Virus record (IMG/VR): IMGVR_UViG_3300035703_000126
Coordinates: 1 to 52,994 of that record
Strand: one strand, 5' to 3'
Length of the DNA: 52,994 nucleotides
Origin: a virus
Lineage: Duplodnaviria > Caudoviricetes
Numbering within the stretch: position 1 is the stretch's first letter; every line of letters begins with the position of its first letter. The notes under the pieces were generated by a model. That model saw nothing but the letters and a program-made list of their open reading frames with translations, was not told the origin of the DNA and ran no database searches. The translations under genes were made by a program, and so were the position numbers. Below, piece after piece: positions 34,450 to 52,994 of the stretch.

Positions 34450-37400
34450 GCAGGCTGAGTCTGTCCGGTCTGGCGGATCTGTATCCGGAACGACAGCAGG
34501 GGCAACCAGCCCGCGATTACCGGATGCAGCCGCAGCCGGGTGGCAGGCCGTTGTCCGTGGGTGGCTATGACCTCGTGTCGCCGGACATGCGTGACACGGC
34601 CGCGCAGGACGCCGCGATTGCCGAACAGGCTCGTCGCGCGGATGCACAGCAAAAGGAACTGGATCGACTGTCCTGGTGGGAGCGGTTCAAGAACATTGGG
34701 GCACGACTCGGCGCCGGCATGAACCCGGACGCTCAGGTGTCACCGGCGGAAATGCCGCTGCCCGATCCGCAGGCAGAAGCCGCGCGAATCATGGAAGAGC
34801 AGCGGAAGGAGCAGGTCCGGAAGTCGAGTCCGTACTACCAGCAGGCGTTGATCGAACTGCAGGCGGAAGACCGGCTGAAACGGCTTGATGCTCAGTACCA
34901 GCGTGAAGCGGATGAGCGGCTCAAGGGCGTCGGACTGCCGCGCATCGGTCTGCGTCCCGGCCAGCAGCCGCCCACGATGGGCCAGGCGATGGCGGAGGAG
35001 ATCGCTCAACGGACCCGCGAGGACCGGGCACGGGAGTCCGGCTATCAGTACGAGACCGGGGCACTGGCGGAAGACCCGTTTGGACGCACTCAGATGCGTT
35101 CCGGAACGCCCGGAGAGAGTCCGCAGTATCCTTTGCTGCGTGACATCGGCATGGGGCTGAGAAACGCTGGCGGTGCTCTCGGCTCTGTGGCGCTCCGGAT
35201 GTTCGGATCGGACGATCTGGCGAATCAGGCGCAGGCCTACATTGAAGGCCAGCGGATGCGTCAGGAGCAGGAACGAACCGGCGACCGATTTCCGTCCATG
35301 ACTCGTGCAGCGGCAGGAGCTACGGAGTCGGCGGCAACGCTTCTCGGAGCCAGTGCTGTCGGCGGGATGCCGGCCGTGATCGCCACCTACGGCGCGGAGG
35401 CCTTCGATCAGGGGCTGTACGACGCGAAGCAGGCCGGGCTGGTTGGAAACGACCAGTTGCGCTACGCAGCCGGCGAGGCGGCCATTGCGAGCCTTGTGTC
35501 GCCGATCATGGATCGACTCGGCATGTCCGGCGTTGAGAAGGCGGCGATGGCACAGCGCGTCGCCAATCGGACGATGCGGAATGCCTTCGGAAACCTGGCA
35601 AAGACGGAGGCCGGTGAATTTGGTCAGGAGCTTCTGGAGCTGTCGCTGTCGTCCGCATTGCAGGCGGAAACCGGCGTCGATCCGCAGGCACTGGAACTCA
35701 GCACGTTCATGCCGCGAGTGGCTGATACGGCTTTGACGACGATGCTGACAGTCGGCGCCGTCGAGTCCCCGAACATTGCAGCGGCAGTGGATCGGTTCAT
35801 CCGCGAGCCAAGCCGGAAGAACTACGCCGGCCTGCCGGAGGAAATCCGCGCGCCGCTGGGCGACACCGTGAAGTCCTCGGCGGACCGGCAGCGACTGGCC
35901 GAACAACTGATCGCGAATCAGACGCCGCCGCAAACGGAACCGCTTGAAACCGCTCGAAACCGCTCGAAACCGGAGGAAGCACTTCAGCCCGGCGTTACTT
36001 CGCCGCCGGGACCGTCCGCCGGGAGTCCTCAGCTACCGATGGGGACTCCCGGTGTCCAACCAGAAGATCAAGGCGTCCCGTCTCAGGTTCCAGTTCTCAG
36101 TCCCGGAGAGGAGGTGATCGTTGATGAAGAGCGGATGCAAAGGGGGCCGGAAGGGCGGCAAAGGGAAGTAGTCGCGCCACCGGTTCCCGATCCGACAGAG
36201 CAGGCCGGCGGCATCCCCGTCGCCGCCGAGCCTGCTGCTGCTCCTGCTGAAACAGCTCCCGCGCAATGGATGCTGACTCCGGAAGACACTGCGATCGCTG
36301 AGAGGGCTATTCGCGACGTGATCAGGGCTGGCAAGCCGCGCATCCAGGACGCGGATGTCGATGATCTGACCGGCAAGGTTCTCGATGTTGTCGCGACGCA
36401 GTTTTCTCCGGAGCGTGGGAACCTGCGAAACTACGCGCGGAAACTTGCGAAGAATGCCCGAACGACCTTCATGCGAGAGCGGCAGCGCGGTCCTGAGCAG
36501 ATGCCGGAAGGTGTTACCGATTCTGGTGCAGTCGATCCGGCGATCGAGGCGCAGATCAACGAACGCGCCCGGGCGGAAGGCATCGACATCAACGTGCCGG
36601 AAGTCCCCGATGTGCCGCAGGTCGGCAACGCGCCGCCACAGCCAGATCCCGGACAGGCGGCAACGGACATGCCGAAGATCAGGGCCAACAACGTATGGGT
36701 CGGACAATCCGGTCCCGTGCGGATCAACAGCACCAAAGGCGGACTGGTGACATTCAAACCCGTTGGCGCCGCAGGGGAACCGCAGACCCTTCCGGAGAAT
36801 GAGTTCCGCCAGCAGTACACTCCACGCGGAGCGACCCAGCCACCAGCCCAACCCGTCGAACCAGTCACGACTGAAAGACCGCTGTATGACCGAGCGGTTG
36901 ACTTTGCTGTCGGCAAAGGTGTCGTGAGCACTGGAATGCTGCAAAGGGAGTTTGGACTCGGATACACCGGCGCGGCACAACTGATCGACCAGATGACAGA
37001 CTCTGGCGTGATCGCCCCATCAACCGGAGCGCAGGAGCGAAAGGTATTGCTGACTTCAGCACCGCAGGCAGTCGCTCCACCAGCACAACCTTCCGTGCCG
37101 CCCACAGAGCAGCCGCAACAGGCAGGACTGCAAACGCCTTCCCCGCAACCGGTGGACACGATCGCCGGCCGGATGGATCTGACTGAGTTCGAGACGAAGG
37201 GGTACGCGCCGGAGCAGGTCACGCGGCAGGACTGGATCAACCTGCAGAGGGCTGAGCGTCGTCGGCTGGGGCAGCCGGAAGAATCCGGGACGCAGTACGC
37301 TCCGTTTGCTGACTACGAAGAGTTCCATCGCGACGCTGTCAGGCAGGCAGTCGCGCGCGGCGATGAAGTTGATCCCCAGGTTCTGGCGGACTATCCCGAT

Positions 37401-40400
37401 CTGGCTCCCGCGTCGTCGGCCGTCGAGCCGGAGAAGACGATCGGCCAGCAGGCAGAGCCGGAGTCACAGCCAACTCCGGCAATAAGCTTCGAGCAGTTCG
37501 CCGACGCGATGGAGCGATCTGAACGAGGGGCGAAGCGTGATGGATCACTGGTGTCATTCGGAGACCTCCGGCGAGAAACAGGCCTCAGCAAGCCGGACTT
37601 CGACGCAACCGTCCTGCGATTCAAAGCGGAGGGCAAGCTGAATCTGCACACCGACGACTTCCCCGGCAACAGAACTGCCGAGGAACGTGAGCGGTTCATC
37701 CCAACAAAGACAGAGCGCGGCGACACATACTTTCTTGGCGCGTCAATCAGCGAAACTGCGCGCGACGAACTGGCCAGGCAGCCGGCTGCCACTCCACAGG
37801 CCACACCGGAGGCGACTCCTGCGCCGCCCGCCGAATCGCCGCAGAAACCAGTGAAGCCGCGAACGCCGGGCAAGCCACTCAATCGCACGCAGAAAGATGC
37901 AGCCCTGCGGCATCACTTCACGCCTGGAAAAATTGTCCCGTCATACAGCGGACAGGATCGGGTGATCGCATTCAATCCGGGCGGCCCTGAGTCCACATGG
38001 AGCGTGGACGTGCAGGCTGTTGACGAAAGCGGTACTCCTATCGAGGGCGAGGTTGTTCGACGGCACGGCACGGAGCCGGACGCGAAGACGCTCCTGAAGG
38101 CCTACGATGATCTGGTGGCATCGCAGCAGGCAACCGCCCGGCCGACAGAGCCAGAGGCGAAGCCCGCCAGGAAGAGGAAGGAATCACCAGAGCGGGAACC
38201 ATACCGCAGGACAACTGACGCATCGCCGGAAGGGCGAGCGCTGCTGCGATCACAAACGGAAGCATATCGTGACAGAATCACTGAGCTTGAGCCTCGGCTT
38301 AAAGATGCCAGAAAACGTCTGGCCAACACGCGATCTAACGCACACAAGAAGCGAGGCGAAATTCAGACTGAGATCAACGAGATCGAAAACGAAATAGGCC
38401 GATGGAGACGCATGGAGCAAAAGGCGGCAGACGAGTACCGCCGTGCTGCAATTGAGGACGCGATGGAGGATCCGAAATCAGACCTGCATCGTCAGGCTGG
38501 TCTTCGCGAACTCGCCATGCTCGATTTTCGGGAGGCGGAACGGCGAGGTGCAGATGCCCGCGAGAAACGAGATCGAGGGTCGTATGACGCGGCCATGAAG
38601 CAGATGAGCAGCCTGGAAGACAGAATCCGTGCGATGGATCACGATCTTGAAGCTGGGTTTTCTCAGATCGCCATTGAAAGGCACGGGGATGCTCTGACTC
38701 CAAACGAGATCGCATCAGTCGCATCGCTGTCAAAATATGACTTCAACGTGGATTCGCGAGGCACTCCGGAATCAGTCATCGACAGTCGCGCCGAAGAACA
38801 GATTGCCGGTCGCAAGAACAACGTGAGCCTGGCGGATATCAGCGGGCTTCCTGAGGATGATCGGCAACGGCTGGAAAAGCAGATCGAGGATGACCTGCGA
38901 AAGAAGGAGTGGCACGAAACCGTTACGCGAGTGCGGAATGAGGCGTCTGAGATTGCCAGAACCGCACGAGAGGAATCACAGAAGCGGAAAGCGAAGGAGG
39001 CGCAGGAAGCTGCTGAGGAGAAAAGAAAGTCAGATATTGCAGAGGCCAAAGAGAAGTATGCGCAGCGCAAGTCAAGCTCCACCGAACTGCGATACTGGAA
39101 GCAACTGAAGGAACGTGCCAGCAAGATCAAGACACAGAAGGATGTGTCAGGAAAGTATGGCGACGATGCTGTGAAAGGGGACGCCGTCGGCGAGACCTGG
39201 CTAATTTACGCCGCCGGAAAGGGGGATTACGTCCTGATTCACCGTCCATCCGGCATTGGAGTGACGCACGCCACGAATCCGAGCAACGCTAAACAGCTCA
39301 TTTTGATGCTGGAAGACGCCGGCATTGATATGTCGAAGTACGAAACGGCCGACTCTATCCCGGCAGATGTCGCGAAGCTCGCCGGGCAGATCGTTCGCGC
39401 ATGGGATAATGAGGACTTCCAGCAGATCACCGACGATGGGAAGCGTGGCGATATTTTGTCGCGAGTCCAGAAGCCTGATGTTGGGGTGAAGTTCGATATC
39501 GAAGTCGATGCGGCTGATGTTGAGAGTGCGAAGAAGATTGGAAGTAAATCTGCAGAGCAGCGACTGCGAGAGTTTGTCCGCGAGGTTCCGGAGTTCGGCT
39601 ACAACCCCGTCTTCACGGTGGATGACAACAAAAGACTGGTCTTCAAGGATGGTTTCAAGTTTGCGCTGAACCCGGAATTATTCGGGATCGACGCCGACAT
39701 TCTGGAGCCGGGATTTCGCGTTGCCGTCAATCTGGAAGACATTGGCATCGCGCGGCCGACTGCCGCCGAAGTCGTGAAGGATGTGCTGAGCCGCGAATTC
39801 AAAGTGACCAAGAGCGGTCCATCCGTGTTCGCCGTCAAGCCGCTGGATAAGCCCGATGGTCCGGCTGTCGTGGTTCGACAGGGCAGCGGAGAAGAATGGA
39901 TCGCCGGAACCGGATCGGACGCTCCGCACTACGCACGAGTCGAACAACTCCTGAAGGGCATCCCGTGGCGGGAAAGCGAGCAGGTTGCAAAGAACGACAA
40001 GGCGGCCGACGCCGACGCACAAGAGTCGCTTCCGCCAGTTGTCGCCGCTCCATACAAGGATGACTTCGCAAGGATTCTGCCAGTTTTAGACCGTCAGGTC
40101 AGGGCGGAAATCAGCCCGAATAAACAGAAGACTATTGCCATCAGCCACATGGATGGCGAGCCGCCGGCAATTCAGCGGGCTATTGCAGAACGCCTGCAGC
40201 AAATTGCTCCGGATGCGGTTCGGAGTGCCATCGCTCAGCCAAAGTCTGTTCCGATTGGCATGATGGCTCATTTCAGGGCGGTCACCACTGAGCTTGACTC
40301 TGAACGACCTGGTGGATCATCGGCGGTCGGAATGCCGGCGAAATCATCGAAGCCGGTTCCCGCTGTGCCACGGGACATGCCGCTGTTGTTGCCGCCGGCC

Positions 40401-43400
40401 GGAGACACCGGGAAGCCTGTGGCGATCCGCACCATCATGAATGCTCTGGAGCAGGCGGTATCCCTGCTCGGCAATGAAGTGCCGATTCGCGTCGGAAAAA
40501 TGTCGCAACGAACGGCACTCGGCATCTTCAAGGTTCACGATGAAGTCGCGCGCATCCGAGAAGCCAACGACCTTGAAACGGCCGCTCATGAAATGGGACA
40601 CGCCATCGACAAGTTGATCAATGGCTGGCCTAAGGGTGGACCGTGGAAAACGCCGCGAGTGCAAAAGCTGGTGCAGGATGAACTGACAGCAATCGGCCGA
40701 TCCCTCTACGTCGATACCGCGCCAACCGGAGGATACAAGCGCGAAGGCTGGGCGGAGTTTGCCCGGCTGTGGCTGACTGATCCGGAGTCGGCCGCGAAAT
40801 TTGCCCCACATACGTCGGAGTGGTATCGAGACACATTTGAGAAGGCGTATCCGAAAGCCGCTGCGGCTCTGCGGGAAGTGCAAGGCATGATTACGAAATG
40901 GAGAGAGCAGGGAGCGAAAGCACGACAGAGTACGGCGATCATCGACACCGGCAGTGTTCCGCAGAGAGTTGAGCGCATTAAAAAGTGGGCAAAGCACGCC
41001 GTCAGCATGGAAGCCCATATCGAGATGCTGGAGCCGCTGTGGGGTTTGGCCAGAGAAGCCGAGAAGCGAACTGGCAGGGAGCTGGCTGCGACAGACGATC
41101 CATACGCTATCGCGGATGCCTTGCGGATGGTTCATCATGCGCGAGTCGAGACATGGGTTCGGCACGGCATGACCGACCTGGCCGGAATGCCGACAGGAGT
41201 GAAACCGCTCAGTGACGTCGGAAAGCTGATTCCAGAACAAGAGCGGAACGACTTTGTGCTGTATTTGTGGGCGAGACGGGCACTGGCCTTGATTCTCGAT
41301 CCCCGTGGCCCGCGAAATCCCGGCATGTCGCTCAACGAAGCGGAATACCTCATCGCCGAGCTTGATAACCCGCGATTCCGGGAAGCGGCGCAGATCGTGT
41401 ACGACTGGAATGATGGCGTTCTGGATTACGCGGCTTCTGCCAGTCCAGTGTTCGCTGATGTTGTTCAACGAATCCGTGCGCGTGATCCCGGCGCATACAT
41501 TCCTCTTGCCCGATACTTCCGGGAACTCGATGAGATTTACAGCCGGAGCGGTGGCGGCAACGACATGATGGGCACGTTGATGGGCAAGTTGCGAGGGTCC
41601 GGCCGGGAAATCAAAGACCCGATTCCGCAGATGATCGCCAACGCCACAAAGATGGCGCACGCGGCGCATGACCGCATGATTCTGGACGCGATTCAAAAGC
41701 TGTCCGCGAACGTGCAGGGGCTGGGGAAGTACATCGAGAAAGTGCCGCGCGATAAAGTTCCGGCGGCGGCCGTGTCCGTCGAGGAACTTCTGCGGACACT
41801 GGAAAAGAAACTGTCGGAGCAGGAAATCGACATGACACTGACTCGTTACGACGAGCCAGTTGAGAAAGAAGACCTTCAGGATCTGATTGGCGAGACAGTC
41901 ACGTTCTTTACGACGGCAATCAATCCGTCAGGTCCGTATCCGATCATGCCGATGTATGACGCGACAACGAAGAAGATTGAGTGGTTCTATCTCAACGGCA
42001 ACCTGTATCACGCACTTGGCGCCATCGAGATGGCGGGGCTTCCAATGATTGGAGGGTTCAATCTACTGGCTCCGCTGGCCGCATTGAATCGACTGCGGAA
42101 AGCGGGAACTGTCGGCTTGCGAGCGGCATTCCAGTTGTTCACAAACCCGACTCGCGATCTTCAGACACTGCTTCAGAACACGCAGTCGCGGGCGACTCTA
42201 CCTAAAGTCGCATGGGAGTACGCACGCCAGACTCTAGGTGCCGCATGGAATCTCCTGCCAGGAACCCAGCCGACATCGGCAATGCAGTTCTGGAGAAACG
42301 CGGGCGGGCATGTCGCGCAGATGCTTGGCGAAGATACAGCACGCACACGAGAGTTAGGCAGTGAGGTGTTCGGTAAGAAGTTCAGCCGGCGACTGCTGCC
42401 GTCGAACTGGTGGAGCAACGTCAAAGACGCATACGACATTTACAAGGACATCGTCCAGATTCCGGAAGCAACAGCCCGCGCCACTGAGGTGCAGTTGCTG
42501 ATGGACGAAATGGGCATCAAACCTGGGGACCGCATCACGCTGGAGCAATCCCTGCGGCTGCTGACGGCGGGCAAGAAGGTTACGGTGGACTTCAGCGCCG
42601 CCGGCGAGTTTGCGCGGGTCTGGAATCAGCTCGCTCCGTTTTACAACGTCGCCATTCAGGGACCGCGTTCTATGGTGCGAGCGGCGCAGAAGAACCCGTT
42701 TGTTTTCACCGTGCGACTGGCGCAGGTGGCTGCACTGTCCGCGCTGTTGTGGTGGCGGAATAAGGATGAGGAATGGTATCGCAAGCTGAACACACGGCTG
42801 AAGACGATGTACTGGAGCTTTCGATATGGCGATCAGGTCATACTGCTTCCCAAAGCATTCGAGAACGGTGTCGGAGTGGCCGGCTTTGTTGAGTCCATGC
42901 TGGATCAGCAGTACGGACAGAATCCTGAGGCCGTGACGGAGTGGTTTCACCAGTTTATGGAAACTGCCACCCCGAACTACATACCGGGCGTTGCCGATGA
43001 GGTTCTGGCTCAGGCGATGAATGAAGACCTGTTCTGGAAGACGCCGATTGAGTCGCCGGAATTGCAGCGCATGCCGCGTCATGAGCGATTTAATGAGTAC
43101 ACGTCAGGCGTGGCAAAGTGGCTCGGCAAAACCATGAAGTGGTCGCCAGCTCGCATTGATCACGCTTTGCGCGGCATTGCGGGACCAATGGCTGGAGATG
43201 TGACGAGAACACTTGATGAGATTGTCGGAGTCAGCACGAAGCGAACGAGAGAGTGGGAGCCGGCAGACCTTCCGGTGATCGGTAAGGCGTTTCAACGTGG
43301 CGGAATCCACGGAACCCGCACGGCGAACATTGACAGGCTGTATGAGCGGCGAGCGGAAATGAACCTGCGGTCAAACAGTAAGGAGAACCCGGAAACGCCA

Positions 43401-43796
43401 CAGCAGCGACAGCAACGGCTGATGTTGAATGATGCCGCAGAGGCGGTGTCGGATATCTATCAGGCGCGGCGACAAATGGAAAAGACAGAAGATCGCGGCA
43501 AGGCGACTGATGAAGCGGATCGTATCGCGACTGATGCGCTGAAACGCCTTGAGTCCGGGACGCTGCCGCCGGAGCGCATCGCCATCCTGGTCGAGAACGC
43601 CATCTCTGAGGGGAAGTCCGAGAAGGCTCAGCAGGAGTCCCGCGAGGCACTGCTGATCCTCAAGCAGTCAGGGCTGTCCGCGCGGGAAATCACACAGGCC
43701 TACACGAAGAAGAAGCGAGCGGACAAGGAGCGTGTTCTGCCGTCGAACCTCAACAGGCTGAGGCTGCGGCTGTCGCGAACGAAGGCCGAAGAATGA
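34446..43796 (+). CDS. giant (3116 aa) polyvalent ejection protein with sigma70-r2-like, FtsK-gamma, wHTH, zincin HExxH and LPD38-like domains
   Basis: FSPERGNLRNYARKLAKN; PLYDRAVDF...LQREFGLGY..AA.LIDQM; AAHEMGHAID; C-terminal W..DEEWY...YW...LPK...SPARIDHALRG. Confidence 0.8.
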   Translation: MSRLSLSGLADLYPERQQGQPARDYRMQPQPGGRPLSVGGYDLVSPDMRDTAAQDAAIAEQARRADAQQKELDRLSWWERFKNIGARLGAGMNPDAQVSPAEMPLPDPQAEAARIMEEQRKEQVRKSSPYYQQALIELQAEDRLKRLDAQYQREADERLKGVGLPRIGLRPGQQPPTMGQAMAEEIAQRTREDRARESGYQYETGALAEDPFGRTQMRSGTPGESPQYPLLRDIGMGLRNAGGALGSVALRMFGSDDLANQAQAYIEGQRMRQEQERTGDRFPSMTRAAAGATESAATLLGASAVGGMPAVIATYGAEAFDQGLYDAKQAGLVGNDQLRYAAGEAAIASLVSPIMDRLGMSGVEKAAMAQRVANRTMRNAFGNLAKTEAGEFGQELLELSLSSALQAETGVDPQALELSTFMPRVADTALTTMLTVGAVESPNIAAAVDRFIREPSRKNYAGLPEEIRAPLGDTVKSSADRQRLAEQLIANQTPPQTEPLETARNRSKPEEALQPGVTSPPGPSAGSPQLPMGTPGVQPEDQGVPSQVPVLSPGEEVIVDEERMQRGPEGRQREVVAPPVPDPTEQAGGIPVAAEPAAAPAETAPAQWMLTPEDTAIAERAIRDVIRAGKPRIQDADVDDLTGKVLDVVATQFSPERGNLRNYARKLAKNARTTFMRERQRGPEQMPEGVTDSGAVDPAIEAQINERARAEGIDINVPEVPDVPQVGNAPPQPDPGQAATDMPKIRANNVWVGQSGPVRINSTKGGLVTFKPVGAAGEPQTLPENEFRQQYTPRGATQPPAQPVEPVTTERPLYDRAVDFAVGKGVVSTGMLQREFGLGYTGAAQLIDQMTDSGVIAPSTGAQERKVLLTSAPQAVAPPAQPSVPPTEQPQQAGLQTPSPQPVDTIAGRMDLTEFETKGYAPEQVTRQDWINLQRAERRRLGQPEESGTQYAPFADYEEFHRDAVRQAVARGDEVDPQVLADYPDLAPASSAVEPEKTIGQQAEPESQPTPAISFEQFADAMERSERGAKRDGSLVSFGDLRRETGLSKPDFDATVLRFKAEGKLNLHTDDFPGNRTAEERERFIPTKTERGDTYFLGASISETARDELARQPAATPQATPEATPAPPAESPQKPVKPRTPGKPLNRTQKDAALRHHFTPGKIVPSYSGQDRVIAFNPGGPESTWSVDVQAVDESGTPIEGEVVRRHGTEPDAKTLLKAYDDLVASQQATARPTEPEAKPARKRKESPEREPYRRTTDASPEGRALLRSQTEAYRDRITELEPRLKDARKRLANTRSNAHKKRGEIQTEINEIENEIGRWRRMEQKAADEYRRAAIEDAMEDPKSDLHRQAGLRELAMLDFREAERRGADAREKRDRGSYDAAMKQMSSLEDRIRAMDHDLEAGFSQIAIERHGDALTPNEIASVASLSKYDFNVDSRGTPESVIDSRAEEQIAGRKNNVSLADISGLPEDDRQRLEKQIEDDLRKKEWHETVTRVRNEASEIARTAREESQKRKAKEAQEAAEEKRKSDIAEAKEKYAQRKSSSTELRYWKQLKERASKIKTQKDVSGKYGDDAVKGDAVGETWLIYAAGKGDYVLIHRPSGIGVTHATNPSNAKQLILMLEDAGIDMSKYETADSIPADVAKLAGQIVRAWDNEDFQQITDDGKRGDILSRVQKPDVGVKFDIEVDAADVESAKKIGSKSAEQRLREFVREVPEFGYNPVFTVDDNKRLVFKDGFKFALNPELFGIDADILEPGFRVAVNLEDIGIARPTAAEVVKDVLSREFKVTKSGPSVFAVKPLDKPDGPAVVVRQGSGEEWIAGTGSDAPHYARVEQLLKGIPWRESEQVAKNDKAADADAQESLPPVVAAPYKDDFARILPVLDRQVRAEISPNKQKTIAISHMDGEPPAIQRAIAERLQQIAPDAVRSAIAQPKSVPIGMMAHFRAVTTELDSERPGGSSAVGMPAKSSKPVPAVPRDMPLLLPPAGDTGKPVAIRTIMNALEQAVSLLGNEVPIRVGKMSQRTALGIFKVHDEVARIREANDLETAAHEMGHAIDKLINGWPKGGPWKTPRVQKLVQDELTAIGRSLYVDTAPTGGYKREGWAEFARLWLTDPESAAKFAPHTSEWYRDTFEKAYPKAAAALREVQGMITKWREQGAKARQSTAIIDTGSVPQRVERIKKWAKHAVSMEAHIEMLEPLWGLAREAEKRTGRELAATDDPYAIADALRMVHHARVETWVRHGMTDLAGMPTGVKPLSDVGKLIPEQERNDFVLYLWARRALALILDPRGPRNPGMSLNEAEYLIAELDNPRFREAAQIVYDWNDGVLDYAASASPVFADVVQRIRARDPGAYIPLARYFRELDEIYSRSGGGNDMMGTLMGKLRGSGREIKDPIPQMIANATKMAHAAHDRMILDAIQKLSANVQGLGKYIEKVPRDKVPAAAVSVEELLRTLEKKLSEQEIDMTLTRYDEPVEKEDLQDLIGETVTFFTTAINPSGPYPIMPMYDATTKKIEWFYLNGNLYHALGAIEMAGLPMIGGFNLLAPLAALNRLRKAGTVGLRAAFQLFTNPTRDLQTLLQNTQSRATLPKVAWEYARQTLGAAWNLLPGTQPTSAMQFWRNAGGHVAQMLGEDTARTRELGSEVFGKKFSRRLLPSNWWSNVKDAYDIYKDIVQIPEATARATEVQLLMDEMGIKPGDRITLEQSLRLLTAGKKVTVDFSAAGEFARVWNQLAPFYNVAIQGPRSMVRAAQKNPFVFTVRLAQVAALSALLWWRNKDEEWYRKLNTRLKTMYWSFRYGDQVILLPKAFENGVGVAGFVESMLDQQYGQNPEAVTEWFHQFMETATPNYIPGVADEVLAQAMNEDLFWKTPIESPELQRMPRHERFNEYTSGVAKWLGKTMKWSPARIDHALRGIAGPMAGDVTRTLDEIVGVSTKRTREWEPADLPVIGKAFQRGGIHGTRTANIDRLYERRAEMNLRSNSKENPETPQQRQQRLMLNDAAEAVSDIYQARRQMEKTEDRGKATDEADRIATDALKRLESGTLPPERIAILVENAISEGKSEKAQQESREALLILKQSGLSAREITQAYTKKKRADKERVLPSNLNRLRLRLSRTKAEE
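35941..35970 (+). repeat. 3 x 10-bp tandem repeat CGCT(T/C)GAAAC inside the giant gene
   Basis: cgcttgaaac cgctcgaaac cgctcgaaac. Confidence 0.85.
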
Positions 43797-44701: not shown

Positions 44702-45457
44702 ATGCCCGACGCGGTCATCTACAGCCGCTTCTCGCCGCGGCCGGAAAAGGCCGGCGATCAGGAACTCAAAGCCCGCGCCGAAGACGCAGCCACGATCCAG
44801 CAGCAGATCGACGCCTGCCGGCGATACTGCGACATGAAGGGCTTCACAGTCACTCAGGTCATTCGCGATCCGGAAACATCAGCCCGGCACACGAAGCTCT
44901 TCGAGCGACCCGGCGGATCAGCACTGCTCGAACTGCCGCCAGGCACGCACATCGTCGCCGCCAAGCTCGACAGGCTCTTCCGTAACACGATCGACGGACT
45001 GTCCTCGATGTCCACGCTGCGGCGGAATGGACTCACGCTGCACCTCGCCGATCAGGGTGGATGCACGATCGACACCAACACCGCCATCGGGGAACTCATC
45101 ACCACGATGCTGCTCAGCGTCGCCGCCTTCGAGCCGCGACAGACAGCCGAACGGGTCAGCAAGGGAATGCGCTACCGCCAGAACACGCTTCGCCAGCGCA
45201 TGTCCGCCAACGTCCCGTTCGGATTCAGGCTCTGCCCGGACACCAATCTACTGATCGACGACGAACACGAACGGCAGCTCATGAAACGCTGCCATGCCCT
45301 TCGCAAGCAGGGCTTCTCCCTTCGGGAGATCATCGCAATCCTCGTCAGGGACGGCGACGAGAAATGCCGCGGGAAACAGTGGCACCCCAACACGATCCAG
45401 CGGCTGATCGAAGCGCACGAGAAGCATCTGGTCCCAGCAGGAGCAGCATCGGCATGA
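44702..45457 (+). CDS. serine recombinase (resolvase family with recombinase-domain tail)
   Basis: YSRFS catalytic Ser, RPG, KLDRLFRN, TAIGEL, ERVSKGM, VPFGF. Confidence 0.9.
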   Translation: MPDAVIYSRFSPRPEKAGDQELKARAEDAATIQQQIDACRRYCDMKGFTVTQVIRDPETSARHTKLFERPGGSALLELPPGTHIVAAKLDRLFRNTIDGLSSMSTLRRNGLTLHLADQGGCTIDTNTAIGELITTMLLSVAAFEPRQTAERVSKGMRYRQNTLRQRMSANVPFGFRLCPDTNLLIDDEHERQLMKRCHALRKQGFSLREIIAILVRDGDEKCRGKQWHPNTIQRLIEAHEKHLVPAGAASA

Positions 45458-47628: not shown

Positions 47629-47634
47629 TTCACA
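47546..47634 (+). repeat. attC recombination site
   Basis: R'' GCCTAAC, 5 nt, L'' GTTGCAGC, GCCGCC/GGCGGC stem, L' GCTGAAC, 6 nt, GTT; one extra base in L''. Confidence 0.85.
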
Positions 47635-48142
47635 GAATCCACGGCGCCACGGTCACGTTCGGCAGGCGAGCCAGATCGCCAGGCGTCGTCTCCGCTGGAA
47701 CACCGAACTTCGGAACTCCGACCAGCATCAACGCGAACGCTGCCAGCTCCGAACAGAACCACCGCTCGGCGTGCAGGTCAGTTTTCAACTTCCACGCCCG
47801 GCTGATCCGACGCCACACCCACGAAAACGATCGCACGAACTGACGCGGCGAAGCGTACTCCTCACCGATCCGATGCAGCAGGAACCGCTTGATCTCCTGC
47901 CGCTGCTCGCCATCCAGCCCGTCCACCCGCCCGATCGCACAGTGACCGCGCCACTGCTGCCAGACATACGGCCGAACGATCCGCACGCCCTTGCCTTCGA
48001 GCGCCTCCACGATCCACAACTGGCCCTCGACCTCGACGAACACGCCGACGTGCGACCACTCCGACCCCGACCGCAGCCGGATCAGCCGCGACCACAGCCG
48101 CCTTCCGCTGAACAACGCCAGATCGCCCGTCCGTGGCTCCAT
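47630..48142 (-). CDS. permuted NlpC/P60 papain-like amidase (YiiX/YebB-like)
   Basis: GDLALFSG, WSHVGV, FCSEL and TPGDL. Confidence 0.85.
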   Translation of the reverse strand: MEPRTGDLALFSGRRLWSRLIRLRSGSEWSHVGVFVEVEGQLWIVEALEGKGVRIVRPYVWQQWRGHCAIGRVDGLDGEQRQEIKRFLLHRIGEEYASPRQFVRSFSWVWRRISRAWKLKTDLHAERWFCSELAAFALMLVGVPKFGVPAETTPGDLARLPNVTVAPWIL

Positions 48143-48561: not shown

Positions 48562-49380
48562 TTACCTCTTAACCTTCGGCAGCGGCTGTGCCTGCTTTGC
48601 CGCCCGGATCGCATACGCCCGGTGAAACCGGATCGTCCGCTCCAGGTGGCCCGATCGCAGCAACGCACGGCCGCTTGAACCCCACCTCACGCCCCACGAA
48701 TTGGACATCGTGAAGGCCAGTTCGCCGTCCGCCCACGCCAGCCCGTCCGCCAGAACCGCGTGATTCCCGGCTCCGTTGTCGATCCCCGCGAAGCCGTTCC
48801 GATCCAGCTTCGAGAACGAATCGCCTACATGCACGGCCAGCACCAGATCGAAACCCATCGCCAGAGCTGTGAACGCCCCGCGAACGGTCTCGACGGCATA
48901 GCACTCATGCGCCCGGTACAGCTTCGCTTCCCGGTCCGCCTGCTGAACGTCGTACTGGTTGCGGTAAATCTGATGCGGCCTCACCGTTGGCTCCGACGCG
49001 CAGCCGCGATCCATCAACGCTGCCATGCCGCGGTGCAGCGTGGAACCCTCGTCCCGGCCGTCGTTGACCAGCGAGTACAAATACGACCCGGACAGGTCCA
49101 CGCGGTCCTGACCACCGCGAACCCTCGCCCGCGCCAGAGCCATCGCTCCGGCCCAGCCATTACAGGAACCTGCCGCGCCCTGGTCTTTGATCCAGTTGCG
49201 GTCCTCGAACAGCGTGCGGCCGTCGAGCTTCCCGGTTCTGGCGATCTTCTCCAGTGCGCTGTCGGACATCTCCGGCACTGCGAAGACCGGCATCGACAGC
49301 TTCAAGCCCGGTTCCGGCAGCAGAGTCGCCAGCTTGCGCTCCACGCCGTCAATCACAATCACTGGCAGAGACTGAGTCAT
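48562..49380 (-). CDS. papain-family (C1) cysteine peptidase
   Basis: KDQGAAGSC, LSGSYLY, GNHAV and NSWG.RWG. Confidence 0.88.
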   Translation of the reverse strand: MTQSLPVIVIDGVERKLATLLPEPGLKLSMPVFAVPEMSDSALEKIARTGKLDGRTLFEDRNWIKDQGAAGSCNGWAGAMALARARVRGGQDRVDLSGSYLYSLVNDGRDEGSTLHRGMAALMDRGCASEPTVRPHQIYRNQYDVQQADREAKLYRAHECYAVETVRGAFTALAMGFDLVLAVHVGDSFSKLDRNGFAGIDNGAGNHAVLADGLAWADGELAFTMSNSWGVRWGSSGRALLRSGHLERTIRFHRAYAIRAAKQAQPLPKVKR

Positions 49381-49398: not shown

Positions 49399-50196
49399 CT
49401 ACCAATCAACGCACGTTTCGCACATAGGAAGGCCATCATCCACAAACAACCTCATCTGTGCGGCATCCGCTGCAACGAGAGACTCCCAGCTCCAGTGTCT
49501 CCCAAGACCCTTGACTACATTGAGACCGCCGCGTTCGCGTGCGTTCTGCTCCATCTCAACAGCCCTCTGGAAGAGATCGGGGTACTCTCTGGCCAGAGCC
49601 AGCACTTCCGGCTTTCGCATCGCAGGGCAATAAAAGCACGCTGACTTTTCTGGAACATATCCAACAGCACGCACACATGCGGCCTCGCAGTCTTCCTGTC
49701 GCCACTTCCATTCTCTCAACGGGAAGCGGTAGGTGAACTGCGCGTCGTCGGGAATCTTTCCTCGTTTCGTCTCTCCGTAATGAATGCCGATGACTCGCTG
49801 CACGCGCTGTCCGCGTTCCCATGCCGCTTGCGCTGCAGGCCACGCCTTGACCCACTTATCCATCGGGTAGCGTTTCCACTTTTGAGAACAACCGCCGAAC
49901 CCGAACGCCTTGCTGGGCAGCGTACCGTTTGTGTGGCATTCATCTTCCAGGCTTGCGTGCCGGCTGGTGTCGCTGTATCGCACGATGATCAGTTCGGGAA
50001 ACCCGACATCAACACACCACCGCTGCATTCGCTCCAGGTGCCTGTATGTGCCCGGTTTCTCGCCGCCAGTATCGGCAAACAGGATTGCGTCCGGTCGCTC
50101 GCCGCGCTCAAGCATCCCTTGAAGTATTGCAGTGCTGTTTGTCCCGGCGCCGAAGCTGACCACTGACGGGCTATGACCTGGCAGTTCCGTTGCCAT
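49399..50196 (-). CDS. PAPS-reductase-like PP-loop protein
   Basis: VVSFGAGTNST, FADTGGE, CSQKWK..P, FPL and KSACFYCP. Confidence 0.8.
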   Translation of the reverse strand: MATELPGHSPSVVSFGAGTNSTAILQGMLERGERPDAILFADTGGEKPGTYRHLERMQRWCVDVGFPELIIVRYSDTSRHASLEDECHTNGTLPSKAFGFGGCSQKWKRYPMDKWVKAWPAAQAAWERGQRVQRVIGIHYGETKRGKIPDDAQFTYRFPLREWKWRQEDCEAACVRAVGYVPEKSACFYCPAMRKPEVLALAREYPDLFQRAVEMEQNARERGGLNVVKGLGRHWSWESLVAADAAQMRLFVDDGLPMCETCVDW

Positions 50197-51302: not shown

Positions 51303-51469
51303 CTTCAATCCATTTTTGGAATTTTCAGCATTGCTGGCTTGTCTAAAACTTCGGACTCGATTAGAAACTAAGCCCGTCAGGCATGGGACTGACGCGGGAG
51401 ACGAACGCAAGTCTCCTGCATGAGGCAGTTGAGCCAGTCACGGGCGCGTGACTGGAACGGAACGAGGAC

Positions 51470-51586
51470 ATGAGCTTCGACGCCTACGGCCTGCTTCTGC
51501 TGGGCCTGCTCATCGTCAGTGGCGTGGCGGCGGCCTACGTCGTGTCGCGCCCGCAGCAGTTCTCAGACACCGGGAGCGAATCATGA
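51470..51586 (+). CDS. 38-aa single-pass membrane peptide
   Basis: Read by hand: MSFDAYGLLLLGLLIVSGVAAAYVVSR...; GAGGA RBS; ATGA coupling. Confidence 0.55.
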   Translation: MSFDAYGLLLLGLLIVSGVAAAYVVSRPQQFSDTGSES

Positions 51587-52095
51587 GCGACCGATTCTCT
51601 ATTCGCTGGATGGTCCGCAAAGACATGGACCAGGTTGTTCAGATCGAGCGGCTTTGCTTTGGTCAGCACGCATGGACCACGGAAGACTTCTTTGACGCAC
51701 TGCGTAACCGCCGCGTCATTAGTCATGTGGCGACGCTCGCCGGCGAGTCGGACCGCGTCATCGGCTACGCGATCAAGTTGCTTCGGCCGAAGCGTATCGA
51801 GTTATGGAACATCGCCGTGCATCCGGAGTGGCAGCGGTCGGGCATCGGCACGCTGCTGCTGCATCACGTCGCTCGCGGCGTTGGCGACCACGGCCGAACC
51901 GAGCTGACTGCCCAGGTTCGCGACGGCAACCTGCCGGGCCAGCTCTTTCTGAAACACAACGGGCTGGTCTGCGAGTCGATCGTCCATCGGCCCTACGAGG
52001 CCTGCGACGACGACGGCTATGTGTTCCGGCTGCGCGTCGGCGACCGGAAGCCCGATGAGAATACCTGTGAGAGCGGCCCTGTGAGCCGGGGCTGA
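51583..52095 (+). CDS. RimI-like GNAT acetyltransferase
   Basis: IRWMVRKDM, WTTEDF, NIAVHPEWQRSGIG and VRDGNL. Confidence 0.85.
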   Translation: MSDRFSIRWMVRKDMDQVVQIERLCFGQHAWTTEDFFDALRNRRVISHVATLAGESDRVIGYAIKLLRPKRIELWNIAVHPEWQRSGIGTLLLHHVARGVGDHGRTELTAQVRDGNLPGQLFLKHNGLVCESIVHRPYEACDDDGYVFRLRVGDRKPDENTCESGPVSRG

Positions 52096-52168
52096 GCGTC
52101 ACAAATGAACTGCGGAGAGGCTCCCGGCAGCGGTAAATGGGGAGCTTGACCCGGTGAGAGACCGGGGT

Positions 52169-52261
52169 TGCTCGTGGGCCAACGGTGGCGGCGAGGCACA
52201 AGCCGACGAATGAGCGGTGGTGAATTGCCTGGCGTGCCCGGTTCGATTCCGGGGCGAGCAA
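52169..52261 (+). ncRNA. tRNA-like RNA with a 27-nt anticodon loop
   Basis: Acceptor TGCTCGT/GCGAGCA; T-arm CCCGG-TTCGATT-CCGGG; D stem GCCA/TGGC; anticodon stem AGGCA/TGCCT. Confidence 0.55.
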
Positions 52262-52349
52262 GTTCGACTCTGCGTCAGTGATTCAAACGGCCGGATTTCT
52301 GACGGCCGGTGTGTTGCCGGTGCTTCGCGGCCGGAGTCGATGTTTACAA

Positions 52350-52422
52350 CGGGCTGTAGTTCAGGTGGAGCAGAACATGACCAGACGTGGTCAAGGCGTG
52401 CGTTCGAGTCGCACCAGTCCGG
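52350..52422 (+). ncRNA. tRNA-like RNA with a 6-nt (or 4-nt) anticodon loop
   Basis: Acceptor CGGGCTG/CAGTCCG; TA; D-arm GTTC..GAAC; TGACC-AGACGT-GGTCA; T-arm GTGCG-TTCGAGT-CGCAC. Confidence 0.75.
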
Positions 52423-52613
52423 TTTCACACAAAGAGCGGCGGCGTTTGAGAACTCTGGATCGCCAGATCGGGCAGTTGGACAGGCAGCTTCAATCTGCTT
52501 TCTGGCCCGGATACTTCAACAGGGCAACCATTGAAAAACGCCAGCGGCTGGATGCAGAGCGTAAGGCATTGCGGATCGCCATCAAGCGACCGGTGGTTCT
52601 GGAGACTCAGTAG
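52377..52613 (+). CDS. small basic coiled-coil protein; start uncertain
   Basis: The best ATG lies inside the tRNA-like element, with GGAG supplied by its D-loop. Confidence 0.45.
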   Translation: MTRRGQGVRSSRTSPVSHKERRRLRTLDRQIGQLDRQLQSAFWPGYFNRATIEKRQRLDAERKALRIAIKRPVVLETQ

Positions 52614-52632
52614 CAAACAAGGAGCGAGGTTT

Positions 52633-52994
52633 ATGCTGGAGCAGTTTGACACATTAATTAAGCAGCGTGCGGAATTGAAGAAATGGTGGACGCTCCGCAG
52701 CACTGTGGCAGCATACGATCAGAAGCGACATAAACTACGTGTTGATGTTGCTGCGCCAACGATGGTCGCTTTCTGCGGTCAGGCGTACGCCGGAGCAACC
52801 AATTATCACGACGCGCCGAAGTGGTTTATCAGTGCCATCAGAGCGGAAATGCAAAACGAGGCAGATCGAATCACCGAGCAGGCGTATCACGCAGAGATGG
52901 CGCGGTTGAATTCGGAAATACAGAAGCATCACGATGTCGTGATGCAGGCTTTAAGGGAAGTAGACAAGGAGGTTGAAGATGCTTGTGTTGTCAC
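52633..52994 (+). CDS. hypothetical protein, 3'-truncated
   Basis: AAGGAG..GAGG RBS; frame open to the window end. Confidence 0.6.
   Translation, partial: MLEQFDTLIKQRAELKKWWTLRSTVAAYDQKRHKLRVDVAAPTMVAFCGQAYAGATNYHDAPKWFISAIRAEMQNEADRITEQAYHAEMARLNSEIQKHHDVVMQALREVDKEVEDACVV
52979..52994 (+). CDS. probable start of a CsrA-like regulator (MLVLS...)
   Basis: AAGGAGG RBS then ATG CTT GTG TTG TCA C; only five codons visible. Confidence 0.35.

What the first reader, a model, noticed from the sequence alone, without database searches (positions are those of the whole stretch)
52105..52422. Cluster of tRNA-shaped RNAs with intact acceptor, D and T arms but non-decoding anticodon arms
Seen: 52350-52422 is a clean cloverleaf whose anticodon loop is 6 nt (AGACGT, or a GACG tetraloop) with no U33. 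52169-52261 keeps a 7-bp acceptor stem and a perfect T-arm but has a 27-nt loop. Between them is a third closed multi-stem (TCGACTCT/GGAGTCGA, 52264-52340), and two more hairpins lie upstream. Neither RNA encodes CCA. Inference: stems preserved with only the anticodon broken, twice, suggests tRNA mimics rather than random decay. They could be decoys for anticodon nucleases or tRNA-sensing defences, or RNase P/Z processing signals for the early transcript.
Basis: partly seen in the sequence, partly recalled or inferred. Interest (0 to 1): 0.75.

Follow-up and report, generated by a model that had tools for sequence, protein, structure and literature searches.

The report
Non-decoding tRNA-shaped RNAs in a phage
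An uncultured phage carries two tRNA-derived RNAs that cannot read codons, and one of them, with a six-base loop in place of the anticodon loop, appears to be kept in distant relatives directly in front of the same small gene, so it looks like a working tRNA mimic and not a dead gene.

Summary
52350-52422 is a true tRNA by covariance model (42.8 bits, threshold 29) with a 6-nt loop and no U33. 52169-52261 has a 7-bp acceptor stem and a textbook T arm, but it fails tRNA models. The strict T-arm motif occurs twice in the 53 kb, both here, against 0.12 per shuffled window.

Database proteins that read in frame through the 3' two-thirds of element 3 show the 6-nt spacing in 7 of 8 variants. They also show an invariant T-arm translation and compensatory T-stem changes, while the attached small ORF falls to 31-50% identity. 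Only relatives whose loop keeps the frame could be seen.

Elements 1-2 plus the hairpins form a separate cassette of about 300 nt. It is near-identical in four metagenomes with different flanks. Element 3 belongs to a different module. A relative has a normal tRNA-Lys in the same slot.

Best reading (0.4): non-decoding tRNA mimics that act in cis as RNase P/Z processing signals, like plant mitochondrial t-elements. Decoy or RNP, a translational operator, and decay remain open. There are no expression data and no nucleotide-level covariation.

The parts
51583..52095 (+). RimI-like GNAT acetyltransferase gene. Its last ~20 codons (52036-52095) already lie in the conserved non-coding cassette.
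   Evidence: Pfam Acetyltransf_1 2e-11. TIGR01575 rimI 8.5e-17, below cut-off. Best PDB hits are RimI. Homologues at 82% and 50% identity keep the 20-aa tail 20/20 and 19/20, and the 61% homologue lacks it.
52036..52348 (+). Conserved non-coding cassette of about 300 nt (hairpins, element 1, element 2), exchanged as a unit between phages.
   Evidence: read laying: X2 matches to 52348 and then runs on unlike. X3 joins 51459 to 52054 and stops at 52348. X9 holds 52073-52357 with a 114-nt insert at 52100. There are 1 to 7 differences per contig. GC at the three codon positions is flat on both strands, and the longest ORF has no protein homologue.
52118..52166 (+). Two predicted hairpins (52118-52147 and 52150-52166) directly 5' of element 1.
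   Evidence: MFE -25.3 kcal/mol, z -1.97, 6 of 200 shuffles fold as well. No Rfam family.
52169..52261 (+). Element 1: a tRNA-derived RNA with a 7-bp acceptor stem, a short D arm, a canonical T arm, and a long arm with a 27-nt loop in place of the anticodon arm. Discriminator A, no CCA.
   Evidence: In X4, contigs join 52168 to 52261 and 52166 to 52263, so the element is missing or replaced. Another contig holds 52170-52259 with a different continuation.
52264..52340 (+). Element 2: a predicted closed four-way junction (9-bp closing stem, three hairpins).
   Evidence: MFE -34.7 kcal/mol, z -2.17. No Rfam family. The differences listed in relatives lie in loops (52285, 52286, 52291, 52292, 52315, 52326), or turn G.U into A-U (52280) (54 further rows were not shown).
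52350..52422 (+). Element 3: a complete tRNA body with a 6-nt loop (AGACGT) instead of a 7-nt anticodon loop. C1-G72, G73, no CCA.
   Evidence: ARAGORN. RF00005 at 42.8 bits. Conservation in relatives was inferred from in-frame translations.
52377..52613 (+). Small basic coiled-coil ORF. Annotated as 78 aa from ATG 52377 (tRNA positions 26-28; GGAG at 52367-52370). The more likely form is 55 aa from TTG 52446.
   Evidence: P0012 is the 78-aa form, found on 3 Logan contigs. The protein atlas holds the form that starts at residue 24. Residue 24 is M in 3 and L in 5 of 8 homologues. Codons 1-23, counted by hand, have GC2 0.70 and GC3 0.52, which is not coding-like. 52446-52613 has GC1/2/3 of 0.59/0.41/0.66.
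52633..52992 (+). Gene of unknown function, open at the window end.
   Evidence: Translation. No Pfam, PHROG or phage match.
52980..52994 (+). Start of a CsrA-like gene (MLVLS...), cut by the contig end.
   Evidence: Read. The relative L003 has the full CsrA-like ORF behind a similar ACAAGGAGGT ribosome-binding context.

Best explanation
The 350-nt gap between the GNAT gene and the next ORF is a variable 'tRNA slot' of a phage operon (small membrane ORF, GNAT, RNAs, small ORF, unknown gene, CsrA). In this phage the slot holds only tRNA-derived RNAs that cannot decode.

Element 3 belongs to a conserved lineage of tRNA-shaped RNAs. In this lineage the body is kept (T arm, stems, tertiary-contact bases). 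The anticodon loop is 6 nt long and free to change in sequence. The RNA always sits directly in front of one family of small basic coiled-coil ORFs.

Most likely it works in cis, like a plant-mitochondrial t-element. The operon transcript folds into the L-shape. RNase P cuts at 52349/52350 and RNase Z cuts after G52422, which is followed by U. This separates the upstream message from the small-ORF message and gives each a defined end. A stable tRNA-shaped by-product is released, and its 6-nt loop keeps it out of translation.

The hairpins, element 1 and element 2 form a second, independently exchanged cassette that is probably processed in the same way.

Shown: tRNA descent, the non-decoding loops, conservation, and modular exchange. 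Inferred: transcription, cleavage by RNase P/Z, and any effect on the neighbouring genes.
For: (1) tRNA descent. RF00005 gives 42.8 bits for element 3. The only two strict T-arm motifs in 53 kb lie here, against 0.12 per shuffled window.

(2) Not recent decay. The frame 52377-52613 has seven database homologues. In 7 of the 8 sequences, the window's own form (P0012) included, M lies exactly 5 codons before the Q codon, so the loop is 2 codons, or 6 nt (RR, RR, RY, NS, GR, RR, RN). P0016 fits a 9-nt loop best.

(3) Selection on the body. Residues 6-13 correspond to tRNA positions 42-66. They are 8/8 identical in P0011, P0013, P0014 and P0015, whose residues 27-78 are only 16-26 of 52 identical. 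Window against P0011 is 16/17 versus 28/60, binomial P 4.8e-5, and the conserved stretch ends within 5 nt of the tRNA 3' end.

(4) Compensation. The three T-stem types (VR|RT, PR|RG, GG|PS) each allow 5 of 5 pairs with their own partner. All 6 cross-combinations allow only 2-4.

(5) Residue 16 is V or I in all 8, so the sequence reads R73 then U. RNase Z cuts directly after the discriminator of CCA-less precursors (PMC8549757, passages).

(6) Placement. The elements are packed 2-9 nt apart between ORFs, with no sigma-70 promoter or terminator on the + strand. In L003 a normal tRNA-Lys (58 bits) starts inside the last codons of the GNAT ORF.

(7) The 52054-52348 cassette is near-identical in 4 of 4 runs laid, with at least four different flank arrangements.

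(8) Precedent. T-elements are cut by RNase P/Z at mRNA ends, some inside ORF ends (PMC1920247, passages). The T4 tRNA cluster transcript also yields species I and II RNAs (PMC2330249, passage).
Against: No expression or end-mapping data exist.

The conservation is read from amino-acid translations, not DNA. Only relatives whose loop length keeps the ATG in frame, and whose gene call includes the extension, could be found. Relatives with 7-nt loops would therefore be invisible.

The anticodon-stem signal is weak. Codon-2/codon-5 complementarity holds in 6 of 6 distinct pairs, but 20 of 30 cross-pairings are also compatible.

The T stem is identical at the amino-acid level in 6 of 8. That is more than structure alone requires, and it could mean the extension is translated.

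Thermodynamic support is weak (z -0.84 to -2.2). Element 1 loses its cloverleaf in the context fold and fails tRNA models.

Both cassettes are dispensable. X2, X3 and X9 lack element 3, and some X4 contigs lack or replace element 1.

Near-identity of the cassette could reflect recent recombination and not selection.
Confidence: 0.4

Rival explanations
1. Trans-acting tRNA mimic. After processing, the tRNA-shaped RNAs act as decoys or as the RNA half of an RNP, possibly with the small basic coiled-coil protein encoded directly downstream. They would bind host proteins that recognise the acceptor/T-arm/elbow of tRNA, such as processing or modification enzymes, toxins that act on the tRNA 3' end, or tRNA-sensing defences.
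For: The whole L-shape is kept, including the D/T tertiary-contact bases, and not just an acceptor/T minihelix. The RNA and the small ORF stay linked across homologues at 39-57% identity. The loop sequence varies while its length does not. Precedents: phage tRNAs counter tRNA-cutting defences (PMC10264068, PMC11464382, PMC11555353; listings and abstract starts only), and AcrIIIA1 is a phage protein that works bound to t(m)RNA fragments (PMC11662646, passages).
Against: Anticodon nucleases read the anticodon loop, which here is non-canonical and not conserved. No defence or anti-defence gene was identified nearby. Linkage to one ORF is equally expected for a cis element. There are no binding data of any kind.
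Confidence: 0.2
2. Translational operator or dual coding. The 78-aa form is really made from ATG 52377. The tRNA-like fold hides its Shine-Dalgarno (GGAG in the D loop) and its start codon (positions 26-28), so that folding or processing sets how much long form and short form is made.
For: GGAG at 52367-52370 lies 6 nt before the ATG. The frame is open and M is at the same place in 7 of 8 homologues. The T-arm-encoded QGVRSSRT is identical in 6 of 8, which is more than RNA structure alone needs.
Against: Codons 1-23 have a non-coding-like composition (GC2 0.70, GC3 0.52, counted by hand), against GC2 0.41 and GC3 0.66 for 52446-52613. Residue 24 is M or L in all 8, and it is TTG in the window. 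An independent gene call starts there. Residues 18-26 are poorly conserved (2-5 of 9). The in-frame ATG is partly an ascertainment effect.
Confidence: 0.12
3. Decaying tRNA genes without function. A phage tRNA island is in turnover. Element 3 lost one loop base, element 1 gained an insertion in its anticodon loop, and both are carried along by linkage.
For: Phage tRNA clusters often hold disabled copies (earlier scan note e1-5840905). A relative has a normal tRNA-Lys in the same slot. Both elements are absent from some close relatives. Element 1 fails tRNA models.
Against: The 6-nt spacing and the T arm persist in homologues whose linked ORF has fallen to 31-50% identity. The changes seen are in the loop or are compensatory. 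The element-1 cassette is near-invariant in four flank contexts, while the GNAT gene beside it differs by 4-19% in X4 contigs.
Confidence: 0.12
4. Element 1 is a Y-RNA-like (YrlA-type) tRNA mimic in tRNA order. Its long arm would carry a Ro/Rsr-binding site.
For: YrlA RNAs combine T, D and acceptor-like arms with a GNCGAAN0-1G motif, occur in phages, and one is cut by RNase P and gets CCA added (PMC4201824, passages). GACGAATG at 52205-52212 fits that motif (read). My estimate of the chance of this in the 27-nt loop is about 0.01-0.05.
Against: There is no RF02553 match. No TROVE/Rsr gene lies in the window. In YrlA the motif lies in a paired 5'-terminal helix, and here it lies at the apex of a loop. 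The match was noticed post hoc.
Confidence: 0.05
5. Element 3 is an attP-type copy of a host tRNA gene used for integration.
For: Mosaic breakpoints lie at its 5' edge (52348 and 52357). A serine recombinase gene lies 7 kb away.
Against: Its 24-nt 3' segment has no exact match in the 185,579 species genomes. It is a full cloverleaf with a non-functional loop. The recombinase is a small resolvase/invertase type and is not adjacent.
Confidence: 0.03

Closest known systems
t-elements of plant mitochondria (PMC1920247; passages read)
   Same: They are tRNA-like folds with a conserved T arm and non-canonical cloverleaves. They sit at, or even inside, the ends of ORFs in polycistronic transcripts. 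RNase P and RNase Z cut them, which defines mRNA ends and releases a stable small RNA that can receive non-encoded C/CA.
   Different: They occur in an organelle, not a phage. No t-element lineage with a fixed 6-nt loop tied to one ORF family is described there. Processing is untested here.
Phage T4 tRNA gene cluster with species I and II RNAs (PMC2330249; one passage read; the tRNA-like shape and unknown function of these RNAs are recalled, not checked)
   Same: It is a phage tRNA island transcribed as one precursor. The precursor also yields small stable non-tRNA RNAs and carries small ORFs. The content of the island differs between related phages.
   Different: T4 has eight decoding tRNAs, and this window has none. 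There is no sequence relation.
Bacterial and phage Y RNAs of the YrlA type (PMC4201824; passages read)
   Same: They are non-decoding tRNA mimics with T, D and acceptor-like arms. They occur in phages. M. smegmatis YrlA is cut by RNase P and gets CCA added. D. radiodurans Yrn1 can be drawn with a 5-bp 'anticodon' stem and a 6-nt loop.
   Different: The topology is permuted: in YrlA the ends lie at the anticodon side. YrlA lies within 4 kb of an Rsr gene. Here there is no YrlA model match and no Rsr gene in the window.
Phage tRNAs that evade or neutralise tRNA-cutting defences (PMC10264068, PMC11464382, PMC11555353; listings and abstract starts only)
   Same: They are phage-borne tRNA genes whose anticodon loops differ from the host's, and they are read as counter-defence.
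   Different: Those tRNAs still decode and have 7-nt loops. These RNAs cannot decode.
Disabled tRNA genes in phage tRNA clusters (earlier scan note e1-5840905; general knowledge)
   Same: They are tRNA-shaped genes with a shortened anticodon arm in a phage tRNA island.
   Different: In that case relatives kept the intact gene. Here the visible relatives keep the 6-nt loop.

Membership tests
tRNA (Rfam RF00005) | Covariance-model score at or above the gathering score (29 bits). | tested here: met
   Element 3 scores 42.8 bits, E 1.3e-8. Wider scans missed it. Element 1 gives no RF00005 match and only tRNA-Sec at 13.2 bits, so the feature is met for element 3 only.
tRNA (functional, decoding) | A 7-nt anticodon loop with U33 and a purine at position 37. 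| tested here: not met
   Element 3 has the 6-nt loop AGACGT, and ARAGORN reports a two-base 'anticodon'. Element 1 has a 27-nt loop. By my hand enumeration, no removal of 20 consecutive nt leaves a U33 loop, and the ARAGORN intron model gives CGTGAAT with G33.
tRNA (functional, decoding) | Aminoacylation and use on the ribosome. | not testable with these tools
   By reading, element 3 has C1-G72, G73 and G4.U69, and no G3.U70. Element 1 has U1-A72 and A73. No identity set could be assigned.
t-element-like cis processing signal | A tRNA-like fold with the conserved T-arm motif GGTTCRANYCC, placed at gene borders. | tested here: met
   Element 1 has GGTTCGATTCC exactly. Element 3 has CGTTCGAGTCG with a 5-bp stem, G53-C61 and a TTCRANY loop. 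Both lie between ORFs.
t-element-like cis processing signal | The ends of the element coincide with mapped transcript ends made by RNase P/Z. | not testable with these tools
   No RNA run holding the stretch was listed.
YrlA / Y RNA-like (RF02553) | A match to the family model. | tested here: not met
   No match at E up to 10. A permuted form would escape the model.
YrlA / Y RNA-like (RF02553) | A Ro60/Rsr (TROVE) gene within about 4 kb on the same strand. | tested here: not met
   There is no TROVE match in the 52,994-base record. The record ends 570 nt downstream and is 68% complete, so absence from the phage is not shown.
YrlA / Y RNA-like (RF02553) | The GNCGAAN0-1G motif in the Rsr-binding helix. 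| tested here: inconclusive
   GACGAATG at 52205-52212 fits the letters but lies in the apical loop.
tmRNA | A tRNA-like domain formed by the two ends, plus a tag reading frame. | tested here: not met
   ARAGORN at default finds no tmRNA. Only threshold-70 runs give calls, and those also litter the region with spurious tRNAs.

The most novel reading that the evidence does not exclude
Element 3 represents a widespread, so far undescribed class of phage tRNA mimic. It has a full L-shaped body with a fixed 6-nt loop of free sequence, and it is genetically coupled to a small basic coiled-coil protein. Together they would form an RNP, or the RNA would control the protein. The pair would hijack or block a host factor that reads tRNA shape, such as a tRNA-directed defence or a processing enzyme. 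The element-1/element-2 cassette would be a second, freely exchanged RNA of the same kind.
Probability: 0.17. Interest if true: 0.85.

Novelty: new variant of a known kind. Interest (0 to 1): 0.6.

Why it matters
Phage tRNA genes are currently explained by codon supply or by escape from tRNA-cutting defences, and both explanations need decoding tRNAs. A tRNA body with no usable anticodon cannot serve either role. Here such a body appears to be kept while the ORF beside it diverges to 31-50% identity.

That points to a use of tRNA shape itself in phages, either as RNA punctuation or as mimicry. Such elements may be systematically discarded as 'pseudo' or 'undetermined' calls.

It also offers a simple handle for study: a 73-nt RNA and a 55-aa protein that can be tested in laboratory strains.

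Tried and rejected
Exact-pattern scans. Stretches of the cassette and of elements 1 and 3 gave 0 matches in viral, metagenome and genome collections.

Protein-anchored scans. P0002 and P0003 found no relatives in viral contigs. The GNAT alignment gave one true relative, L003, among 80 metagenome loci, and 18 distant RimI-like loci in viral contigs. The small-ORF alignment gave none in viral contigs.

CsrA as an anchor. Only 4 of 80 viral CsrA loci have any tRNA within 3 kb, so there is no general link.

Other DNA comparisons. blastn against phage records gave only a 24-nt T-arm match to a phage tRNA-Met. The islands of the window and L003 share no sequence.

Coding reading of the gap. GC is flat at the three codon positions, and the 109-aa minus-strand ORF has no homologue.

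Antisense role of the 27-nt loop. The best complementary run in the window is 15, and shuffled loops reach 12-17.

GNAT as a tRNA-acetylating toxin. The best solved relatives are RimI and N-terminal acetyltransferases.

CsrA sponge. By my hand count there are about 5 GGA motifs in 350 nt, which is about chance.

An 11-nt direct repeat, ACAACGGGCTG, lies at 51956 and 52346. I expect about 0.08 such pairs by chance, and I did not pursue it.

No RNA holder of the stretch was listed. The protein atlas gave no named relatives of the small ORF.

Literature. Four phrasings of 'six-nucleotide anticodon loop' found 0 papers. Searches found no description of such phage elements. Subscription journals and supplements were not searched.
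Full report
**Setting.** The window is a linear IMG/VR virus record of 52,994 bases, estimated 68% complete. It has about 60% G+C and no close relative among deposited phages. It encodes a large terminase, a 3,116-aa polyvalent protein and a small serine recombinase. Around the finding the + strand reads as follows:
- a 38-aa membrane-like ORF;
- a RimI-like GNAT gene at 51583-52095;
- 350 nt without coding signal (flat GC at the three codon positions; the longest ORF has no homologue);
- a small ORF ending at 52613;
- a gene of unknown function from 52633;
- at 52980, the first codons of a CsrA-like gene.

No sigma-70-like promoter or terminator lies on the + strand between 51000 and 52994. 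Co-transcription is therefore assumed, not shown.

By reading, all the usual tertiary-contact bases are present, and only the loop is abnormal (no U33). An independent metagenome contig (run X4, 52316-52616) has the same loop with no indel. Assembly error is therefore unlikely.

Element 1 (52169-52261) folds alone into a cloverleaf. It has a 7-bp acceptor stem, a 4-bp D stem with a 4-nt loop, an 8-bp arm closed by a 27-nt loop, and a textbook T arm. It is a weaker case. ARAGORN finds it only in intron mode or at lowered thresholds. Rfam gives only 13 bits to tRNA-Sec. The cloverleaf is lost in the MFE of the 313-nt context.

Against chance, ARAGORN at default gave 2 hits in 100 dinucleotide shuffles of the window. 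Intron mode gave 18 in 100, of which only 3 had no intron or one of 30 nt or less. A strict T-arm motif (5-bp stem, G53-C61, loop TTCRANY) occurs exactly twice in the window, both here, against 0.12 per shuffle and none with two.

Element 2 and the two hairpins are MFE predictions with z about -2. The whole gap has z -0.84. Neither RNA is followed by CCA.

**The three RNAs are two modules.** I laid contigs of four runs from four studies on 51400-52994.
- An X2 contig is identical from 51400 to 52348 (1 difference) and then continues with unrelated sequence.
- An X3 contig joins 51459 directly to 52054, so it has no GNAT gene. It also stops matching at 52348.
- A contig from an organism-labelled run (X9) holds 52073-52357 with 2 differences and a 114-nt insert at 52100, and has other sequence beyond.
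- X4 holds 52316-52616 as in the window. It also has contigs that join 52168 to 52261 and 52166 to 52263, so element 1 is missing or replaced (the tool could not say which). Another X4 contig holds 52170-52259 with a different continuation.

GNAT homologues at 82% and 50% identity keep the last 20 residues 20/20 and 19/20, while a 61% homologue lacks this tail. The conserved unit therefore begins near 52036, inside the GNAT ORF's 3' end.

Thus 52036-52348 (hairpins, element 1, element 2) behaves as a cassette that is exchanged between phages and kept almost unchanged. X4 contigs over the GNAT gene differ by 4-19% (8/185, 9/188, 9/217, 29/217 and 35/188 differences). Among the rows shown (54 more were not shown), the differences inside the cassette lie at 52105-07, 52201, 52285, 52286, 52291, 52292, 52315 and 52326, which are unpaired in the local folds. 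The one at 52280 turns G.U into A-U.

Element 3 lies outside this cassette and travels with the ORF behind it.

**A relative with a normal tRNA.** The only true relative in the searchable collections is L003, a 3,412-nt metagenome contig. It has the same small membrane ORF and a GNAT at 61% identity. Starting inside the last codons of that ORF is a canonical tRNA-Lys(UUU). About 250 nt of non-coding sequence and a CsrA gene follow. The two islands share no sequence. The slot is therefore a tRNA slot whose content is replaced wholesale.

**Does element 3 keep its odd loop in relatives?** Gene callers have annotated the frame 52377-52613 as a 78-aa protein. Its ATG is tRNA positions 26-28, and GGAG in the D loop lies 6 nt upstream. 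This gives an indirect view of the RNA in relatives whose DNA I could not fetch. The word-index search found P0010 (99%) and P0011 (57%). The cluster also holds P0012, identical to the window, on 3 contigs. The exhaustive search of 1.84 billion representatives added P0013, P0014, P0015, P0016 and P0017 at 39-51%.

The N-termini read M-x4-QGVRSSRT(S/G)P. Mapping codons to tRNA positions shows that QGVRSSRT is the translation of positions 42-66, which are the variable region and the T arm.
- This stretch is 8/8 identical in P0011, P0013, P0014 and P0015, whose residues 27-78 are only 16-26 of 52 identical. It is 5/8 identical in P0017 and 4/8 in P0016.
- For P0011 the first 17 residues are 16/17 identical against 28/60 for the rest (binomial P 4.8e-5). 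The conserved stretch ends within 5 nt of the tRNA 3' end. The single change is in the second loop codon.
- In 7 of the 8 sequences M is exactly five codons before Q. With 3 + 3 stem bases this leaves two codons, or 6 nt, for the loop. The loop residues differ (RR, RR, RY, NS, GR, RR, RN). P0016 fits a 9-nt loop best.
- The T stem occurs in three amino-acid types (VR|RT in 6, PR|RG in P0017, GG|PS in P0016). Each allows 5 of 5 pairs with its own partner strand, and all six cross-combinations allow only 2-4. The changes are therefore compensatory.
- The stem codons 2 and 5 are always reverse-complement compatible (6 of 6 distinct pairs). This test is weak, because 20 of 30 cross-pairings are compatible too and the random expectation is 0.16-0.26.

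Residue 24 is M in three and L in five homologues. It is TTG in the window, and another gene call starts there. Residues 18-26 are poorly conserved. Codons 1-23 have GC2 0.70 and GC3 0.52 by my count, the reverse of the coding pattern in this phage. I therefore think the real protein is the 55-aa form and the extension is the RNA read in frame.

There is an important limit. Only relatives in which the ATG stays in frame (loop length a multiple of three) and in which the extension was annotated could be found. Shorter calls would score too weakly. This shows that the 6-nt form is old and widespread. It does not show that 7-nt forms are absent.

**What it most likely is and does.** Shown:
- tRNA descent of elements 1 and 3;
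- loops that cannot decode;
- conservation of the body of element 3 with a free loop sequence;
- physical coupling of element 3 to one small-ORF family;
- cassette-like exchange of elements 1-2.

Inferred: the operon transcript is cut by RNase P at the 5' ends and by RNase Z after the discriminators. RNase Z cuts there in CCA-less precursors (PMC8549757, passages). Residue 16 is V or I in all 8, so the sequence reads R73 followed by U. The preference of RNase Z for a U there is recalled, not checked. Cutting would separate the messages and release stable tRNA-shaped RNAs.

The closest working analogue is the plant-mitochondrial t-element. It has a conserved T arm and a non-canonical cloverleaf, is placed at or inside ORF ends, is cleaved by RNase P/Z, and yields a stable by-product (PMC1920247, passages). 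The T4 tRNA cluster, whose precursor also yields species I and II RNAs, is the closest phage analogue (PMC2330249, passage).

I give this cis-processing reading 0.4. It explains the linkage to the ORF and the retention of RNase P/Z determinants. It also explains why a loop that keeps the RNA out of translation would be tolerated or favoured.

**Rivals.**
- A trans-acting mimic or RNP with the small protein (0.2) explains why the whole L-shape is kept, and not just a minihelix. It has precedents in phage tRNA counter-defence and in AcrIIIA1 (PMC10264068, PMC11464382, PMC11555353: listings and abstract starts; PMC11662646: passages).
- A translational operator or dual coding (0.12) is suggested by the SD and ATG buried in the fold, and by T-stem identity beyond what structure needs.
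- Plain decay (0.12) is now unlikely for element 3 but remains possible for element 1.
- A Y-RNA-like reading of element 1 (0.05) rests on a post hoc match to GNCGAAN0-1G (PMC4201824). There is no model match and no Rsr gene in the window.
- An attP reading (0.03) is not supported.

**Novelty.** tRNA-like processing signals, tRNA mimics and disabled phage tRNA genes are all known. I did not find a description of a phage tRNA-shaped RNA lineage with a fixed 6-nt loop tied to a small ORF (searches; supplements and subscription journals not covered). I rate it a new variant of a known kind.

The evidence is indirect: translations instead of DNA, no RNA data, and weak thermodynamics. The verdict on mechanism stays open.

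Noticed in passing
window 52350-52422 (method): Rfam scans of 271 nt or more, and the whole-record search with RF00005, did not report an element that scores 42.8 bits in an 89-nt scan (against 61). Blank Rfam results on long stretches of this scan may hide odd tRNAs.
   Followed up: yes
window 1-543 (+): The C-terminal part of a DpdA-like tRNA-guanine transglycosylase homologue (phrog_15826, 1e-31). It is 51% identical to proteins of Synechococcus phages and is annotated DpdA-like in Arthrobacter and Mycobacterium phages. This suggests 7-deazaguanine DNA modification.
   Followed up: partly
window 49399-50196 (-): A PAPS-reductase-like protein (phrog_424, 2e-30). Papain-like (48562-49380) and C92 amidase-like (47630-48142) genes are its neighbours.
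   Followed up: no
window 34446-43796 (+): A 3,116-aa polyvalent protein with LPD38 and FtsK-gamma domains. A small serine recombinase lies at 44702-45457.
   Followed up: no
window 52980-52994; L003 2639-2821: A phage-borne CsrA-like gene closes the operon in both relatives. 188 viral stretches encode CsrA relatives, but only 4 of the 80 loci kept have a tRNA within 3 kb.
   Followed up: partly
L003 2311-2316: The stop codon of the GNAT ORF lies inside the acceptor stem of tRNA-Lys. RNase P processing of the tRNA would therefore remove the stop codon from that message.
   Followed up: no
L088 5064-5155: An unrelated viral contig has a 92-nt class-II-like tRNA-??? with an 8-nt loop and no U33, 37 nt upstream of a RimI-like GNAT gene. 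L083 has tRNA-Met and tRNA-Trp about 280 nt upstream of its GNAT. In all, 2 of 18 viral GNAT loci have tRNA calls.
   Followed up: partly
window 52384-52414 (run X3): A 675-nt contig at depth 49 matches 30 of 31 bases of element 3 (loop to T arm) inside otherwise unrelated sequence. It could be a CRISPR spacer or a captured fragment. The contig could not be fetched.
   Followed up: no
window 52205-52212: GACGAATG in the big loop of element 1 fits the YrlA motif GNCGAAN0-1G (PMC4201824).
   Followed up: partly
window 51956-51966 and 52346-52356: An 11-nt direct repeat, ACAACGGGCTG. One copy lies inside the GNAT gene and the other spans the mosaic breakpoint in front of element 3.
   Followed up: no
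L003 2388-2603: The non-coding stretch behind tRNA-Lys folds (MFE only) into a 15-bp closing stem around six hairpins. Rfam gave only a weak YrlA match at 23.8 bits, driven by the tRNA T arm.
   Followed up: partly
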